The notes under the pieces are model-generated. The model was not told where the DNA came from. It did not search any database and saw nothing but the letters and a program-made list of their open reading frames with translations. From Escherichia coli (lineage in GTDB: Bacteria; Pseudomonadota; Gammaproteobacteria; Enterobacterales; Enterobacteriaceae): a DNA stretch of 64,000 nucleotides. Below are positions 2,055 through 27,659 of this stretch, one piece after another (position 1 is the first letter of the stretch; each line of letters opens with the position of its first letter). Made by a program: the position numbers and the translations under genes. Where the stretch lies: NCBI RefSeq assembly GCF_030013205.1, contig NZ_CP122648.1; one strand, 5' to 3'.

Positions 2055-2647
2055 AACACCTTCGCGAAATAGCCCGGGATGGTGGTTTTATCTTTCACCA
2101 GAATGCTGGTAATGCCTAGCTGATTAGCTCCTTCTATATTATCGGCGTTATCGTCGAAAAAGACCGTATCGCTGGGTGAAAAACCTTCCGCCTGCAAAAC
2201 ATGCTGGTAAATTCGTGCTTCAGGTTTGCGCATCCCCAGATCTTGCGACAGATAGATATGGTCAGCAGCATCACGAATTTCCGGGTATTCTTCCGGCCAG
2301 AAGGTGGTATGCAGGCGGTTGGTATTGGAAAGCACCACCACGCGATGCCCCTGCTCACGCAGTTTATGCATGATGGCGATCACTTCCGGGCGCAGCGCAA
2401 CAAACACCGCCTGCCAGCCGTGAGAGAACTGCTCATAGCTTAGCGGTAGAGCCATCTCATGACACAGCGCCTCTGCGAACGCTTCGTCGCTAATTTCCCC
2501 ACGCTCATGCTGATGAAACGCCTCGCCCATGTGGAAACTCTTCTTAAGCGTAGCCAGTGGAACACGCGTTAAATCGCTCCAGGCACCCAGCACACGGTTA
2601 AAGTCGATATCGACAATCACATTACCTAAATCAAAGATATAGAGCAT
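2048..2647 (-). CDS. yihX: HAD-family alpha-D-glucose-1-phosphate phosphatase
   Basis: ORF 2048..2668 trimmed to the internal Met giving [15 protein letters not shown] (HAD motif DxD near N-terminus); 199 aa. Confidence 0.9.
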
Positions 2648-2745
2648 TTTTGCCTCCTTTCGCGCCACAAGAAATTAACTGTAGCGGGAAAGGATAGGTT
2701 TGGCTATGTGGTCAGGTATGAAGCAAGGTCAACGGTCACAAAATT

Positions 2746-3531
2746 CTACGCGTCTTCCTGGGGAAGGATGATTTCAATTTGGCTGTCTTGTAAGCGTGAT
2801 TTTAGCGCAGCGGGCGGCAGCTCGTCGGTAAAGAGCGCAGTGACCTGTGCCACGTTACCAATTTCAACCGCCGCCGAAGCATGATACTTAGTGTGATCGG
2901 CGACCAGCAGAATATTTCTCGCGTGCGCCATCATCGTTTTCACCACGTTAGCTTCGTTAACATCAAACTCCATCAACGCGCCATCGCTCTCAATCGCCCC
3001 AACGCTTGTTACCAGATAATCAGCACGAAAATCAGCCACAAAGGACGCCGCTGAAGGGCCAATGATCCCGCTATTATGAGAGCGCAACGTACCGCCGGGC
3101 ACCATCACTTCAAAGCGCGGGTTGTGGTAAAGAATATGCGCCACACGCAGGCTGTTGGTGATTATCCGCAAATGATTGTGGTTAAGTAACGCCCGGGCAA
3201 CATGTTCAACAGTCGTACCGATGGTGATAAATATTGTCGATCCATCAGGAATATAGTCTGCCACCGCTTCGGCAATCGCTTTTTTCTCTTCAGTTTGCGA
3301 AACCTCACGCTGCTCAAACGCCGTATTAACGACGCTGGAGGCCCGACCCGCGCCACCGTGATGGCGCGTGATCAGCCCTTGCTCGCTTAATTTACGAATA
3401 TCCCGGCGGACCGTCTGCGTGGAGACATCCAGCAGATTTGCCAGCTCATCAATATTCATATACCCACGCTCGGCGATCAGCATGAGGAGTTGGTCGTGCC
3501 GCGGGTTACCGGTTAGTTCGGTAAGGCTCAT
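2746..3531 (-). CDS. yihW: DeoR-family transcriptional repressor of sulfoquinovose catabolism (CsqR)
   Basis: ORF 2746..3555 trimmed to MSLTELTGNPRHDQLLMLI...; N-terminal HTH plus DeoR C-terminal sugar-binding domain; 261 aa. Confidence 0.9.
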   Translation of the reverse strand: MSLTELTGNPRHDQLLMLIAERGYMNIDELANLLDVSTQTVRRDIRKLSEQGLITRHHGGAGRASSVVNTAFEQREVSQTEEKKAIAEAVADYIPDGSTIFITIGTTVEHVARALLNHNHLRIITNSLRVAHILYHNPRFEVMVPGGTLRSHNSGIIGPSAASFVADFRADYLVTSVGAIESDGALMEFDVNEANVVKTMMAHARNILLVADHTKYHASAAVEIGNVAQVTALFTDELPPAALKSRLQDSQIEIILPQEDA

Positions 3532-13839: not shown

Positions 13840-14532
13840 ATGAAAAAGATTCATGCAATAATTTTATTATCTTCTCTGACCTCTGCCTCGGTATTTGCTG
13901 GCGCATACGTCGAAAACAGGGAGGCATATAATCTCGCCTCCGATCAGGGCGAGGTTATGCTACGTGTGGGTTATAACTTCGATATGGGCGCGGGTATTAT
14001 GTTAACCAATACCTATAACTATCAGCGAGAAGATGAACTAAAACATGGATATAACGAAATCGAAGGTTGGTATCCTTTATTTAAACCAACCGATAAATTA
14101 ACCATCCAGCCCGGTGGCTTAATTAATGATAAGAGTATCGGTTCGGGTGGTGCTGTTTATCTGGATGTTAACTACAAATTTACTCCGTGGTTTAACCTGA
14201 CAGTGCGTAATCGCTATAACCATAATAATTACAGTTCTACAGATTTGAGCGGGGAACTGGATAATAATGACACCTATGAAGTTGGCACCTACTGGAATTT
14301 TAAAATCACCGAGAAATTCTCCTATACATTTGAACCACATTACTTCATGCGAGTAAATGACTTTAATAGCAGCAATGGAAAAGATCATCACTGGGAAATC
14401 ACTAACACCTTCCGTTATCGCATTAATGAACACTGGCTGCCTTATTTCGAATTACGCTGGTTAGATCGTAATGTCGAACCGTACCACCGCGAGCAAAACC
14501 AGATTCGTATCGGGACGAAGTATTTCTTCTGA
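13840..14532 (+). CDS. ompL: Outer membrane porin L
   Basis: ORF 13804..14532 trimmed to MKKIHAIILLSSLTSASVFA (signal peptide); 230 aa; aromatic C-terminus ...KYFF typical of beta-barrel OMPs. Confidence 0.9.
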   Translation: MKKIHAIILLSSLTSASVFAGAYVENREAYNLASDQGEVMLRVGYNFDMGAGIMLTNTYNYQREDELKHGYNEIEGWYPLFKPTDKLTIQPGGLINDKSIGSGGAVYLDVNYKFTPWFNLTVRNRYNHNNYSSTDLSGELDNNDTYEVGTYWNFKITEKFSYTFEPHYFMRVNDFNSSNGKDHHWEITNTFRYRINEHWLPYFELRWLDRNVEPYHREQNQIRIGTKYFF

Positions 14533-14540
14533 TGTGAAAC

Positions 14541-14620
<80 letters not shown>

Positions 14621-14624
14621 TAAT

Positions 14625-15305
14625 TGTGCACAGAAAACCCCCAGCTAGGCTGGGGGTTCCGGAAAGCTTTCAGCTTTGAGCCAGTTATTAAAACCCCTTT
14701 TGATTTGTTAAAACACCTTGCGGTCTGGCAACTGCAAGTGTCAAACAAGAAATCAAAAGGGGGTCCCAATGGGGAACGAAAAGAGCTTAGCGCACACCCG
14801 ATGGAACTGTAAATATCACATGGTTTTTGCGCCAAAATACCGAAGACAGGTGTTCTACAGAGAGAAGCGTAGAGCAATAGGCAGTATTTTGAGAAAGCTG
14901 TGTGAGTGGAAAAGCGTACGGATTCTGGAAGCTGAATGCTGTGCAGATCATATCCATATGCTTGTGGAGATCCCGCCTAAAATGAGCGTATCCGGGTTTA
15001 TGGGATATCTGAAAGGGAAAAGCAGTCTGATGCTTTACGAGCAGTTTGGTGATTTGAAATTCAAATACAGGAACAGGGAGTTCTGGTGCAGAGGGTACTA
15101 CGTCGATACAGTGGGTAAGAACACGGCGAAGATACAGGATTACATAAAGCACCAGCTTGAAGAGGATAAAATGGGAGAGCAGTTATCGATTCCCTATCCG
15201 GGCAGCCCGTTTACGGGCCGTAAGTAACGAAGTTGGATGCAAATGTCAGATCGTGTGCGCCTGTTAGGGCGCGGCTGGTAAGAGAGCCTTATAGGCGCAT
15301 TTGAA
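14625..15305 (+). mobile_element. IS200-family (IS200/IS605) insertion element; ends approximate
   Basis: Contains a 152-aa tnpA ORF nearly identical to Salmonella IS200 TnpA as remembered; perfect hairpin cccccag-ctagg-ctggggg at about 14640-14658 upstream of tnpA; K-12 has no such element between ompL and yihN. Exact left and right ends not determinable without an empty-site comparison. Confidence 0.7.
14769..15227 (+). CDS. tnpA: IS200 transposase TnpA (HUH Y1 transposase)
   Basis: MGNEKSLAHTRWNCKYHMVFAPKYRRQVFY...HIHMLVEIPPK...; HUH motif (HIH) and the catalytic-Tyr region recognised; RBS aaagggg upstream. Confidence 0.9.
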   Translation: MGNEKSLAHTRWNCKYHMVFAPKYRRQVFYREKRRAIGSILRKLCEWKSVRILEAECCADHIHMLVEIPPKMSVSGFMGYLKGKSSLMLYEQFGDLKFKYRNREFWCRGYYVDTVGKNTAKIQDYIKHQLEEDKMGEQLSIPYPGSPFTGRK

Positions 15306-15307
15306 AA

Positions 15308-15334
15308 ACCTCCGGCTATGCCGGAGGATATTTA
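15308..15334 (-). terminator. Putative intrinsic terminator of yihN (could alternatively be the IS200 right-end hairpin)
   Basis: Minus-strand hairpin cctccggcatagccggagg followed by ttttt, directly 3' of the yihN stop. Confidence 0.45.
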
Positions 15335-16600
15335 TTAAGCTTCAGCCGCCAGCATCTCTTTCTTACGTTGGCTAATACGCTTAACCAGCATTACGGAAAC
15401 CACCGCACCACAGAATGCGAAGCAGGCCATAATGCCAAACACGATTTTGTAGCCAATAATCCCCGGATTTAAATCCAGAATGTAGCCATACAGACTGAAG
15501 CAGAACATCGCCGGGGCGTAACCAATAAAGCTACCCAACGCCATCGCCGCGCCTGTTTTATTTTCAGCAATTTTTGCTTCGCCGATAGGTGCAAAAAATA
15601 CGGCTCGCTGTGTAAAGACTATCGCGCCAAAGCCCAGCGTACATGCCATCCCTAAATATACCGGCATACTTTCGTGCGGCAGCATAATCAACAGTACGAG
15701 CGCAGCGGTACTGATGATAAAGGTGTAGCATAGATATTTACTCGGCGATTTCAGGATCTTATCTGAAATCATGCCACCAATCGGTCCACCAATCATTTTC
15801 AGACAGTATTGGTTAATGATGCCGTAAGCCCCCACCAGCGCAACGGGCAATAGATAGATGTTTTTCAGGAATGGAATGAAGAATGTCAGGCCACAGTAAA
15901 CCGCGTAAACGAAGAAGACGTTGAAAGCGATAAGCCAGATAGTTTTGTCTTTCAGCACCGAGGTCATACTGGTGTTTTTCGATGCTCCGTCTTCTTTTTT
16001 CACCTCAACGGACGGTGCCTCTTCTTTGTCATTCAGAACAAAGAAAATGATAATGCCTACGGCAATCACAATAAGGGAATAGAACCAGATGCCTGCTTTA
16101 AAACCCAATAAGCCACTGCCAAACCAGGTAAATACTGCCAACGCAGAAAATGCCACCACGGTATCGACAATGCCACGCCCTGTTTCGAAGAAGCCAAACA
16201 ACCGACCTTGTTGTTCGCTATTGCCCAATCGACTTACCGACTTGAGCAAGACCGGCCAGTTCATCATGTCGCAAGTAACGCCAAATAGCGCCCAGACAAA
16301 GAGGATGCCCCAATACCCCGGCATTGTCGTCAAATAAACACCCAGTAATCCTGTCGCAATGAGTGAGAATGACATGGTGTATCTGCGCGGTAGTTTATCG
16401 GCAAAATAAATAGACAGAAAAAAGCCCACTGTCGTGACAAATGAGTTTACCGACATAGCATTACCAATTTGACCATTGGTCAAATGGAAATATTCCTGCA
16501 TCGGGATATAAAACGCATCTTTCAGCGACGGTAATTTATAAATTGTACCGCCACACAATGTTAATAGACTAAATAACGCCCATTTCTTTTTCGTGAGCAT
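15335..16600 (-). CDS. yihN: MFS transporter
   Basis: 421-aa ORF, polytopic hydrophobic; synteny with yihM/yihL. Confidence 0.9.
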   Translation of the reverse strand: MLTKKKWALFSLLTLCGGTIYKLPSLKDAFYIPMQEYFHLTNGQIGNAMSVNSFVTTVGFFLSIYFADKLPRRYTMSFSLIATGLLGVYLTTMPGYWGILFVWALFGVTCDMMNWPVLLKSVSRLGNSEQQGRLFGFFETGRGIVDTVVAFSALAVFTWFGSGLLGFKAGIWFYSLIVIAVGIIIFFVLNDKEEAPSVEVKKEDGASKNTSMTSVLKDKTIWLIAFNVFFVYAVYCGLTFFIPFLKNIYLLPVALVGAYGIINQYCLKMIGGPIGGMISDKILKSPSKYLCYTFIISTAALVLLIMLPHESMPVYLGMACTLGFGAIVFTQRAVFFAPIGEAKIAENKTGAAMALGSFIGYAPAMFCFSLYGYILDLNPGIIGYKIVFGIMACFAFCGAVVSVMLVKRISQRKKEMLAAEA

Positions 16601-27348: not shown

Positions 27349-27413
27349 AATGGTTCGTCTTTTAGCCGTTTTATTCAGTATAGATTTGCGGCGGAATCTA
27401 ACAGAAAGCAAGC

Positions 27414-27659
27414 AAAGAAAAAAGGCGACAGATTACTCTGTCGCCTTTTTTCCTGACTCATAACCCTTAACGGGTCTTACAATCCTTGCAGGCCGCCAAC
27501 ACACCCTGTTTTTCCATTAGCCGGAACAATCCGTGTTGATTCCATTTCCGTTTAATTACGTCTCCGGACGTTTGTCTTCCTGACAATCCTCTGTCTTCGC
27601 CTCCTGGCGCTCCTGACCCTCATCCTGAGTCATTGTTCCTGTTAGCGTCCTCGCTCTAT
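27414..27659 (-). ncRNA. csrC: CsrC small RNA (CsrA-sequestering)
   Basis: Minus strand reads ATAGAGCGAGGACGCTAACAGGAACAATGACTCAGGATGAGGGTCAGGAGCGCCAGGAGG..., with many GGA motifs, ending in the hairpin ggcgacagagtaatctgtcgcc + U-run; matches CsrC as remembered and its known yihA-yihI intergenic location. Confidence 0.85.

What the first reader, a model, noticed from the sequence alone, without database searches (positions are those of the whole stretch)
14625..15305. IS200-family element inserted between ompL and yihN
A tnpA encoding a near-canonical IS200 transposase lies in the ompL-yihN spacer. K-12 has no IS200, so this marks the strain as non-K-12. The element sits next to REP palindromes, in line with the known relationship of IS200/IS605 elements to REP-like hairpin DNA, and has the typical perfect hairpin upstream of tnpA. 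It separates ompL from the yihNML cassette and could alter read-through between them. IS200 is also known to encode a small antisense RNA against the tnpA 5'UTR.
Basis: partly seen in the sequence, partly recalled or inferred. Interest (0 to 1): 0.45.

Follow-up and report, generated by a model that had tools for sequence, protein, structure and literature searches.

The report
IS200C insertion after ompL terminator hairpin
This is an ordinary, already catalogued 711-bp IS200C insertion sequence sitting between ompL and yihN in a pig-associated E. coli lineage, and like its relatives in many bacteria it has landed immediately after a hairpin followed by a T-rich tail (a terminator-like structure).

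Summary
A 711-bp IS200C element occupies window 14626-15336. tnpA (14769-15227, +) encodes an intact 152-aa Y1/HUH transposase. The 5' region is a full-length Rfam STnc490 match.

K-12 and most E. coli carry the precise empty site (GGCCATTAATT|AAGCTT). Only 17 of 5,426 complete genomes have this insertion, all from pigs. That lineage carries 19-23 IS200C copies per chromosome, against a median of 1.

ompL and yihN are convergent, so operon-style read-through between them does not apply. The yihN stop codon is regenerated. The element carries terminator-like hairpins at both ends.

The REP neighbourhood is better explained by target choice. In 130 independent IS200-group insertions from 26 taxa, 86% lie 5-9 nt after a hairpin with a T-rich tail (target TTNTT). 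The control figures are 0.7% at random positions and 14% at TTNTT positions. This site fits, with a weak variant (TAATT).

The element and this insertion are already annotated in RefSeq. A recent preprint reports the terminator enrichment statistically. Interest is low.

The parts
14626..15336 (+). IS200C insertion sequence, 711 bp. It has no terminal inverted repeats and no target duplication beyond a 3-nt ATT microhomology, so 14623-15333 is formally equivalent.
   Evidence: Empty-site alignments with S51 and K-12. Copies at other loci are 100% identical over all 711 bp. RefSeq annotates it as 'IS200/IS605-like element IS200C family transposase'.
14769..15227 (+). tnpA, encoding a 152-aa Y1 HUH transposase. 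The HUH motif is H61-I-H63, the catalytic Tyr is Y125 and the associated Gln is Q129.
   Evidence: Pfam Y1_Tnp 129.4 bits and NCBIfam transpos_IS200 147.2 bits. Alignment to solved TnpA structures 2ec2, 2f4f, 2a6m/2vjv (IS608) and 2xm3 (ISDra2). Residue positions.
14636..14658 (+). Left-end subterminal hairpin, AA-CCCCCAGC-tag-GCTGGGGG-TT. It is the presumed TnpA-binding hairpin in single-stranded DNA. In Salmonella IS200 the equivalent hairpin is described as a bidirectional Rho-independent terminator that blocks impinging transcription.
   Evidence: DNA fold. Rfam STnc490 helix 1. Function in Salmonella IS200, nt 12-34, from PMC4513863 and PMC5435999. Inferred here by homology.
14633..14637 (+). 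GAAAA run immediately 5' of the left-end hairpin foot. It is the candidate guide sequence that would pair with the T-rich target.
   Evidence: Inference by analogy with IS608 and ISDra2, where a guide tetranucleotide lies 5' of the hairpin foot (PMC3333891, PMC6006769). The sequence is shown. Not tested.
14636..14759 (+). Structured tnpA 5' region, matching Rfam STnc490 full length at 146.4 bits. [quoted passage not shown]
   Evidence: model positions 1-124 of 124; gathering score 56. Fold with z = -6.38. SD-sequestering stem at nt 69-138 in PMC4513863.
14688..14777 (-). [quoted passage not shown]
   Evidence: Placed only by homology with Salmonella IS200 as described in PMC4513863. No promoter-like site was found on this strand by the simple scan. 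Expression was not tested.
15309..15327 (+). Right-end subterminal hairpin, CCTCCGGC-tat-GCCGGAGG, followed by the 9-nt tail ATATTTATT (15328-15336) that ends the element. On the minus strand the hairpin is followed by TTTTTC, giving a terminator-like site for yihN transcripts.
   Evidence: DNA folds on both strands. Terminator-like on both strands.
15303..15308 (+). GAAAAA run immediately 5' of the right-end hairpin foot. It is the candidate right-end guide, complementary to the TTATT cleavage site at the element's 3' end.
   Evidence: Sequence. Analogy with IS608. Inferred.
14594..14625 (+). Host target: REP-like hairpin (T)GGCCGGAT-loop-ATCCGGCC(A) plus the tail ATTAATT. The element's first base follows directly.
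   Evidence: Fold. Terminator-like. Present unchanged in the empty sites apart from one loop base. It matches the general target pattern.
14541..14575 (+). Canonical y-type REP, with the GTAG tetranucleotide on the minus strand. It is a host element and not part of the IS.
   Evidence: Match to the first REP of the REP-derived naRNA4 model at 40.6 bits. REP definition from PMC3333891. It is the site of an IS1397 insertion in strain EC556.
13840..14532 (+). ompL, the upstream neighbour, co-oriented with tnpA.
   Evidence: NCBIfam porin OmpL 467 bits. Annotation.
15335..16600 (-). yihN, the convergent neighbour. Its stop codon TAA (15335-15337) overlaps the last 2 nt of the element and is regenerated by it. 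The protein is unchanged.
   Evidence: ORF list. The same protein accession, WP_000956312.1, is annotated in carrier K_EC180 and in strain HS, which lacks the IS. Junction sequence.

Best explanation
This is a structurally intact copy of IS200C, a tnpA-only member of the IS200 group of the IS200/IS605 family. It inserted once, recently, into the ompL-yihN intergenic spacer of a pig-associated E. coli lineage (ETEC / O139:H1) in which IS200C has expanded to about 20 copies.

Shown here: the identity of the element, its exact ends, the empty site, the intact HUH/Tyr transposase, the hairpins at both ends, the conserved 5'UTR structure, its distribution among genomes, and the insertion-site pattern.

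Inferred from the family's established mechanism ('peel and paste', worked out on IS608 and ISDra2): TnpA binds the two subterminal hairpins on the top strand as single-stranded DNA. It excises that strand as a circle and pastes it 3' of a short target that is recognised by base pairing with a guide sequence just 5' of the hairpin foot.

For IS200C I propose that the guide is the A-run (GAAAA / GAAAAA) that precedes both hairpins. The target would be TTNTT, the same motif that ends the element itself (TTATT). In practice this target is used when it is the T-tract 5-9 nt after a GC-rich hairpin, that is, the coding-strand image of an intrinsic terminator. At this locus the REP-like hairpin at 14594-14619 plus ATTAATT served as that target.

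Consequences here (inferred). Neither neighbouring protein is altered. ompL keeps its 3' hairpins and now also runs into the element's left-end terminator. yihN loses direct contact with the shared REP hairpins but acquires the right-end hairpin plus TTTTTC as a terminator about 10 nt past its stop codon. By homology, tnpA itself is kept nearly silent by the upstream terminators, the SD-sequestering stem-loop and the art200 antisense RNA.
For: Identity and ends: and 100% identity to other IS200C copies.

Catalytic motifs.

Hairpins.

5'UTR RNA structure.

Recent single insertion: 17 of 5,426 genomes carry it, all porcine. Fourteen of them are 100% identical over 1,101 bp. The window is 99.992% identical to K_EC180 over 50 kb.

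Expansion: carriers have 19-23 copies, against a median of 1 and a maximum of 35. PMC4513863 gives an average of 2.9 per E. coli genome.

Target pattern: all 19 independent E. coli sites and 112 of 130 sites from 26 taxa have a hairpin within 12 nt plus a T-rich tail abutting the first base of the element. The figures for controls are 0.7% at random positions and 14% at TTNTT positions. T is present at -5, -4 and -2 in 126, 114 and 127 of the 130 sites. The distance from hairpin foot to junction is mostly 5-9 nt. None of 18 E. coli right flanks is terminator-like.

A second empty-site check, at exbD-yghA, places the insertion exactly at the end of the terminator's T-run.

Guide principle and lagging-strand bias: PMC3333891 and PMC6006769.

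Regulatory elements: PMC4513863 and PMC5435999.

Against: The A-run guide / T-run target pairing is untested. My search pattern required AAAA before the hairpin, so no natural guide variants were available for a covariation test.

The T at -1 is enforced by my boundary rule. The TT at -1/-2 cannot be assigned to the target rather than the element from filled sites alone; only two empty sites were examined.

This site has a weak target (TAATT, 2 of 130 sites).

The element's top strand here lies on the leading-strand template. tnpA is head-on to replication, as shown by the minus-strand rrn operon and by GC skew of -0.035. The family normally prefers the lagging-strand template.

The hairpin association could partly reflect purifying selection that leaves only neutral insertions.

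No expression or transposition data exist for this copy.
Confidence: 0.85

Rival explanations
1. The target is only the short T-rich motif (TTNTT). The hairpin next to it is a passenger. T-runs are concentrated in intrinsic terminators, and insertions elsewhere (in genes or promoters) are removed by selection, so surviving copies merely appear to be homing to terminators.
For: In IS608 and ISDra2 the target is a 4-5 nt motif with no hairpin requirement (PMC3333891, PMC6006769). 16 of 19 E. coli sites lie between convergent genes, the most neutral location.
Against: Only 14% of TTNTT positions in the same loci have a hairpin in the right place, against 86-92% of real sites. The hairpin-to-junction distance is tightly distributed at 5-9 nt. 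The pattern holds in 26 taxa, including lineages with recent bursts and identical copies, where selection has had little time to act.
Confidence: 0.2
2. The element is ancestral at this locus and was precisely lost from K-12 and most other E. coli. On this view it is not a recent insertion.
For: Peel-and-paste elements excise precisely, so an empty site does not by itself give the polarity of the event (family knowledge).
Against: Only 17 of 5,426 genomes carry it. All are from pigs and 14 are identical over 1,101 bp. Empty sites are found in very diverse strains. The copy is 100% identical to copies at other loci in the same genomes.
Confidence: 0.02
3. The gene is a REP-associated tyrosine transposase (RAYT / TnpA-REP) forming a REPtron with the neighbouring REPs, not a mobile IS.
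For: A REP and a REP-like hairpin lie directly to its left. RAYTs are Y1 transposases related to IS200 TnpA.
Against: The NCBIfam RAYT model scores 31.5 bits against a cut-off of 80, while the IS200 model scores 147 against a cut-off of 55. There is no REP on the right side. The unit is present at dozens of unrelated loci with identical 711-bp ends. The E. coli RAYT sits at a single fixed locus between yafL and fhiA (PMC3333891).
Confidence: 0.01
4. Single-stranded target DNA is supplied by transcription rather than by replication. RNA polymerase pausing at a terminator exposes the non-template strand (hairpin plus T-tract) in the bubble, and the excised IS circle integrates there. This would explain how the head-on ompL site was used.
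For: The strand receiving the element is by definition the non-template strand of the terminated gene at every site. The ompL copy lies on the leading-strand template, where lagging-strand ssDNA is not available.
Against: Using record coordinates and K-12 map positions from my own knowledge, I estimate that 14 of 15 E. coli sites are co-directional with replication, against about 55% expected from gene orientation (binomial p = 0.0017). This fits the known replication coupling. No direct data exist.
Confidence: 0.1

Closest known systems
IS200C (E. coli member of the IS200 group, as named in RefSeq/PGAP annotation)
   Same: It is identical. All 711 bp match annotated IS200C copies at 100%. This very insertion is annotated in K_EC180 and 16 other genomes.
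   Different: Nothing at the level of the element. The TnpA allele here (WP_025210499.1) has Met18 where the commonest allele (WP_000526135.1) has Ile18.
Salmonella IS200 and Yersinia IS1541
   Same: They share the same architecture: about 707-711 bp, tnpA only, a left-end terminator hairpin, an SD-sequestering 5'UTR stem-loop and the art200/STnc490 region (PMC4513863). The 33 Y. pestis copies analysed show the same hairpin plus T-tract target.
   Different: They are different species variants; the first 8 nt are GTGCACAG here and GTGCCCAG in Y. pestis. The roles of the RNAs in Salmonella virulence regulation (PMC5435999) cannot be assumed in E. coli.
IS608 (Helicobacter pylori) and ISDra2 (Deinococcus radiodurans), the mechanistic models of the IS200/IS605 family
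   Same: They share a homologous Y1 HUH TnpA (E-values 1e-18 and 2e-16 to solved structures), subterminal hairpins, absence of inverted repeats and target duplication, and insertion 3' of a short motif on one strand.
   Different: IS608 and ISDra2 also carry tnpB. Their targets are TTAC and TTGAT (my own knowledge; not checked in a paper I could read), with no reported hairpin requirement. The IS200C target is a T-tract after a hairpin. No biochemistry exists for IS200C.
RAYT / TnpA-REP and REPtrons
   Same: The protein fold is related, and they use REP-like hairpins as substrates (PMC3333891).
   Different: This protein fails the RAYT model. It is mobile as a defined 711-bp unit and is not flanked by REPs on both sides.
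Other mobile elements that home to hairpins: IS1397 (REP loops) and bacterial class C group II introns (intrinsic terminators)
   Same: They target extragenic hairpins, which minimises damage to the host. In strain EC556, IS1397 sits in the REP loop of this same spacer.
   Different: The enzymes and mechanisms are unrelated: a DDE transposase for IS1397 and a retroelement for the introns. The comparison rests on my own knowledge of those elements and is a functional analogy only.

Membership tests
IS200/IS605 family, IS200 group | Encodes a Y1 (single-tyrosine) HUH transposase. | tested here: met
   Pfam Y1_Tnp 129.4 bits (cut-off 23) over the full profile. NCBIfam transpos_IS200 147.2 bits (cut-off 55). 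HUH at 61-63, Tyr125 and Gln129, aligned to solved TnpA structures.
IS200/IS605 family, IS200 group | tnpA is the only gene (no tnpB) and the element is about 0.7 kb. | tested here: met
   The element is 711 bp with a single 152-aa ORF matching a family.
IS200/IS605 family, IS200 group | No terminal inverted repeats; subterminal hairpins at both ends. | tested here: met
   Left-end hairpin at 14636-14658 and right-end hairpin at 15309-15327. The termini GTGCACAG... and ...ATATTTATT are not inverted repeats of each other.
IS200/IS605 family, IS200 group | No target-site duplication on insertion. | tested here: met
   Comparison of empty and filled sites at ompL-yihN shows only a 3-nt ATT microhomology. 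At exbD-yghA there are only ambiguous Ts.
IS200/IS605 family, IS200 group | Insertion 3' of a specific short motif that abuts the left end, with no conservation on the right flank. | tested here: met
   TTNTT abuts the left end in 130 sites. Right flanks are unrelated, and 0 of 18 are terminator-like.
IS200/IS605 family, IS200 group | Strand-specific transposition through a single-stranded circular intermediate, with guide/cleavage-site base pairing. | not testable with these tools
   Only the sequence prerequisites are seen: A-runs 5' of both hairpin feet, and T-rich cleavage sites. Biochemistry is needed.
IS200/IS605 family, IS200 group | Preference for the lagging-strand template. | tested here: inconclusive
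   This copy is on the leading-strand template: the rrn operon is on the minus strand and GC skew is negative. I estimate that 14 of 15 E. coli sites sampled are co-directional, but this uses K-12 map positions from my own knowledge.
IS200 regulatory RNA module (STnc490 / art200 / 5'tnpA) | Conserved structured 5' region of tnpA. | tested here: met
   Rfam RF01405 at 146.4 bits (gathering score 56), model positions 1-124 of 124, on the tnpA-sense strand.
IS200 regulatory RNA module (STnc490 / art200 / 5'tnpA) | Expression of the antisense RNA art200 and processing of a 5'tnpA sRNA. | not testable with these tools
   Described for Salmonella IS200 in PMC4513863 and PMC5435999. No transcript data are available here, and the simple promoter scan found nothing on the antisense strand.
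RAYT / TnpA-REP (REPtron) | The protein matches the REP-associated tyrosine transposase model. | tested here: not met
   NF047646 scores 31.5 bits against a cut-off of 80.
RAYT / TnpA-REP (REPtron) | The gene is flanked by REP/BIME on both sides at a fixed chromosomal locus. | tested here: not met
   REPs lie only to the left; yihN abuts the right end. The unit occurs at many loci.

The most novel reading that the evidence does not exclude
IS200-group elements across many bacterial phyla may be dedicated 'terminator-homing' single-strand transposons. An A-run guide at both ends would read the T-tract (TTNTT) that follows a host hairpin, a target that mimics the element's own right end (hairpin, about 9 nt, TTATT). 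This would explain the element's harmlessness, its very wide distribution and its silence. Use of a head-on gene's terminator, as at ompL, would hint that ssDNA exposed outside the lagging strand (for example in paused transcription bubbles) can also serve as a target. I found no base-resolution statement of this rule in the papers I could search. A 2025-26 preprint reports the statistical enrichment of terminator-like sequences, and older literature that I could not reach may already describe the rule.
Probability: 0.3. Interest if true: 0.5.

Novelty: already known. Interest (0 to 1): 0.2.

Why it matters
For this window it matters little. The insertion is a useful lineage marker for a pig-associated ETEC / O139:H1 clade with an unusual IS200C expansion. 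It leaves both neighbouring genes intact and probably transcriptionally insulated.

The wider point is that IS200, usually described as dormant and without a defined target, shows a sharp and phylogenetically broad insertion rule: immediately after a hairpin plus T-tract. If that rule is confirmed biochemically, it would give a simple explanation for the element's low cost to the host. It would also offer a predictable 'safe-harbour' targeting logic for a very small ssDNA transposase.

Tried and rejected
1. RAYT/REPtron reading. Rejected on the model score and on context.

2. Other copies in the window. None found.

3. First crude hairpin detector. It under-called obvious terminators where A/T pairs extend the stem. 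It was replaced.

4. Boundary rules. The regex mis-set about 15 boundaries (GTTGTG...). The rule overshot by 2 nt into GTGC... families. One search uses a fixed offset anchored on the empty-site-verified E. coli boundary. The hairpin and T-rich fractions changed little across versions (104-115 of 130).

5. Pseudomonas and Pantoea matches to the left-end hairpin pattern (L029, L052, L084, L091). These are host bidirectional terminators, not IS200, and were excluded by requiring ...GGGGGTTC.

6. Literature. I looked for a stated IS200 target or terminator rule and found only the statistical enrichment in the preprint. The He et al. 2015 review, Siguier et al. 2014 and Barabas et al. 2008 are not held.

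7. Genome-wide absence of IS200 from K-12 could not be tested with the tools. Only the locus was tested, and no explicit statement was found in PMC4513863.

9. Structure prediction and large protein searches were not used. Sequence matches to solved TnpA structures were already decisive.

Full report
**Observation**

The region contains a 152-aa ORF at 14769-15227 (+), between ompL (13840-14532, +) and yihN (15335-16600, -). The protein matches Pfam Y1_Tnp over the whole profile at 129.4 bits. It matches the NCBIfam IS200 equivalog at 147.2 bits, against a cut-off of 55. The REP-associated transposase model scores only 31.5 bits against a cut-off of 80.

Alignment to solved TnpA structures (2ec2, 2f4f, IS608 2a6m/2vjv, ISDra2 2xm3) lines up the HUH motif (H61-I-H63), the catalytic Tyr125 and Gln129. 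ompL is confirmed by its equivalog model at 467 bits.

**Ends and empty site**

Megablast against 5,426 complete E. coli genomes shows that most have ompL and yihN joined without the element. Alignment with strain S51 and with K-12 MG1655 gives the empty site ...GGCCATTAATT|AAGCTTCAGC....

The filled site reads ...GGCCATTAATT|GTGCACAG...GGAGGATATTTATT|AAGCTTCAGC. The insert is therefore 711 bp, window 14626-15336, with a 3-nt ATT ambiguity and no target duplication.

The yihN stop codon (TAA, 15335-15337 on the minus strand) straddles the junction and is regenerated. The same YihN protein accession is annotated in a carrier and in a strain without the IS.

**Anatomy**

- Left end: GTGCACA-GAAAA-[CCCCCAGC tag GCTGGGGG]-TTCC...
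- A small hairpin follows at 14663-14677.
- A long stem-loop at about 14694-14762 buries the Shine-Dalgarno sequence before the ATG at 14769.
- Rfam STnc490 matches 14636-14759 full length at 146.4 bits, against a gathering score of 56.
- Right end: ...TTT-GAAAAA-[CCTCCGGC tat GCCGGAGG]-ATATTTATT.
- On the minus strand the right-end hairpin is followed by TTTTTC and scores as terminator-like.

For Salmonella IS200, the literature describes the left-end hairpin as a bidirectional Rho-independent terminator that stops about 85% of incoming transcripts. It also describes the SD-sequestering stem-loop, the 90-nt antisense RNA art200 (formerly STnc490) and a processed 5'tnpA sRNA (PMC4513863, PMC5435999). 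These functions are inferred here by homology. They were not tested.

**Distribution**

The exact insertion is present in 17 of 5,426 genomes, all from pigs (ETEC and O139:H1 strains). Fourteen of them are 100% identical over the 1,101-bp query. The window is 99.992% identical to strain K_EC180 over 50 kb.

Full-length IS200C is common, occurring in 2,063 genomes. The median copy number among genomes with any match is 1 and the maximum is 35. The carriers of this insertion have 19-23 copies per chromosome, many of them 100% identical. This indicates a recent expansion of an element usually regarded as nearly dormant.

**Neighbourhood**

A canonical y-type REP lies at 14541-14575 (definition). 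A second, REP-like hairpin at 14594-14619 is followed by ATTAATT, and the first base of the element comes next.

ompL and yihN are convergent. With terminator-like hairpins facing both ways, the element should insulate its neighbours.

**Why next to a hairpin**

I extracted the flanks of independent copies encoding the same TnpA or the commonest allele. I also extracted about 120 matches to the left-end hairpin from one-genome-per-species contigs.

In nearly every case the DNA immediately 5' of the element is a GC-rich hairpin followed by a T-run. This is the coding-strand image of an intrinsic terminator, usually that of a co-oriented upstream gene. In E. coli the upstream genes appear to include rho, icd, exbD, guaA, galU, fabF and kdsA. 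Only exbD is taken from a record annotation. The other names are my reading of the Pfam domains and product lengths.

The quantified result covers 130 unique sites from 26 taxa (per-taxon breakdown):

| Measure | Real sites (n = 130) | Random positions (n = 3,000) | TTNTT positions (n = 2,000) |
|---|---|---|---|
| Hairpin ending within 12 nt of the junction | 120 | 636 (21%) | 353 (18%) |
| T-rich tail (at least 5 T in the last 8 nt) | 122 | 136 (4.5%) | 1,578 (79%) |
| Both | 112 (86%) | 21 (0.7%) | 281 (14%) |

- The target consensus is T(-5) T(-4) N T(-2) T(-1), with T in 126, 114, 127 and 130 of 130 sites. The -1 T is enforced by my boundary rule.
- The distance from hairpin foot to junction is mostly 5-9 nt.
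- None of 18 E. coli right flanks is terminator-like.
- At exbD-yghA the empty allele reads GGGCATTTTTTT|AACC, and the element sits exactly at the end of the T-run.

The element's own right end has the same form: a hairpin, 9 nt, ending in TTATT. Both hairpins are preceded by an A-run.

The family's known mechanism uses a guide sequence 5' of the hairpin foot that pairs with the cleavage or target site. By analogy, I propose that the A-run is the guide and TTNTT the target. This is an inference.

The ompL-yihN site fits the rule with a weak tail, TAATT (2 of 130 sites).

[quoted passage not shown] I found no base-resolution statement of the rule. Several key reviews were not available.

**Replication strand**

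The rrn operon in the window is on the minus strand and GC skew is negative. tnpA and ompL are therefore head-on to replication, and the element's active strand is the leading-strand template. This is atypical for the family.

Using record coordinates and K-12 map positions from my own knowledge, 14 of 15 other E. coli sites are co-directional (p = 0.0017 against 55%). This copy is the exception. A transcription-bubble source of ssDNA is a speculative rival explanation.

**Verdict**

The finding is real and the core interpretation is right. It is an already annotated IS200C insertion and a lineage marker of modest interest.

The corrections are:
- the right boundary;
- the convergent arrangement of the neighbouring genes;
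- the reason for the REP adjacency, which reflects target choice and not the REP/RAYT relationship.

The most interesting by-product is the sharp, cross-phylum hairpin plus T-tract insertion rule for IS200-group elements. It is partly anticipated in the literature and awaits biochemical testing.

Noticed in passing
L146 (E. coli EC556, AP027440) 1121-2469 and 2571-3281; corresponds to window 14559/14560 and 14626-15336: In three Japanese pig isolates (EC556, EC571, EC581) the same spacer holds two hairpin-seeking ISs. An IS1397 (IS3 family) is inserted in the loop of the canonical REP (GCGGCGTAAAC|IS1397|AAACGCC). IS200C is at the identical position but carries the commoner tnpA allele, with 2 nt differences. 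This could be one insertion event or two independent hits on the same target.
   Followed up: partly
window 14822 (element nt 197); tnpA codon 18: The TnpA allele in the window (WP_025210499.1, Met18) differs by a single residue from the commonest IS200C allele (WP_000526135.1, Ile18). The Met18 allele is the one found in the high-copy pig lineages (19-31 copies). Whether it is more active is unknown.
   Followed up: partly
L026-L145: The 25-nt left-end hairpin AAAACCCCCAGCnnnGCTGGGGGTT is conserved exactly in IS200-group copies from Ruminococcus, Peptococcaceae, other Bacillota, Enterococcus, Vibrio, Mailhella/Desulfovibrio, Oxalobacter, Saccharibacteria, Elusimicrobiaceae, Yersinia pestis, Dickeya, Edwardsiella and others. 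The 8-10 nt between it and the element's tip vary by lineage. This implies very strong constraint or recent horizontal spread.
   Followed up: partly
L111, L112, L114 (Yersinia pestis NCTC5923): These loci show head-to-tail RE-LE junctions (...ggaggatatttatt|gtgcccag...). Either one copy inserted directly after the right-end hairpin plus T-rich tail of another, or a circle-junction-like tandem was retained.
   Followed up: no
L094 695-721 (Dickeya undicola): A solo extended palindrome, TTGTCTATAG-AAAACCCCCAGC-cta-GCTGGGGGTTTT-CTATAGACAA, is flanked on both sides by host terminator hairpins and has no tnpA. It looks like a MITE-like derivative built from two inverted IS200 left ends.
   Followed up: no
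window 14636-14759 (+): The Rfam model RF01405 (STnc490) matches the tnpA-sense strand. The literature describes STnc490/art200 as antisense to the tnpA 5'UTR (PMC4513863). As built, the Rfam model therefore appears to represent the 5'tnpA sense RNA, and the strand of an automated annotation would mislead.
   Followed up: partly
window 14607-14608: The loop of the target hairpin has one extra C relative to K-12 and S51 (TTAAGCCAC against TTAAGCAC).
   Followed up: no
L004 (E. coli HS, NC_009800): In strain HS the DNA to the left of the spacer is not ompL but a DeoR/GlpR-family regulator gene. The ompL side of this junction therefore varies between strains independently of the IS.
   Followed up: no
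window 27406-27659 (-): The CsrC sRNA (Rfam 277.9 bits) coincides with a RefSeq 'hypothetical protein, frameshifted; internal stop' pseudogene annotated in K_EC180 (27468-27634). That annotation is probably an artefact over a non-coding RNA gene.
   Followed up: no
E. coli loci L003-L025: 16 of 19 independent IS200C sites lie between convergent genes, with tnpA co-oriented with the upstream gene. The element's right-end hairpin plus TTTTTC on the bottom strand would supply a replacement terminator for the convergent downstream gene each time.
   Followed up: partly
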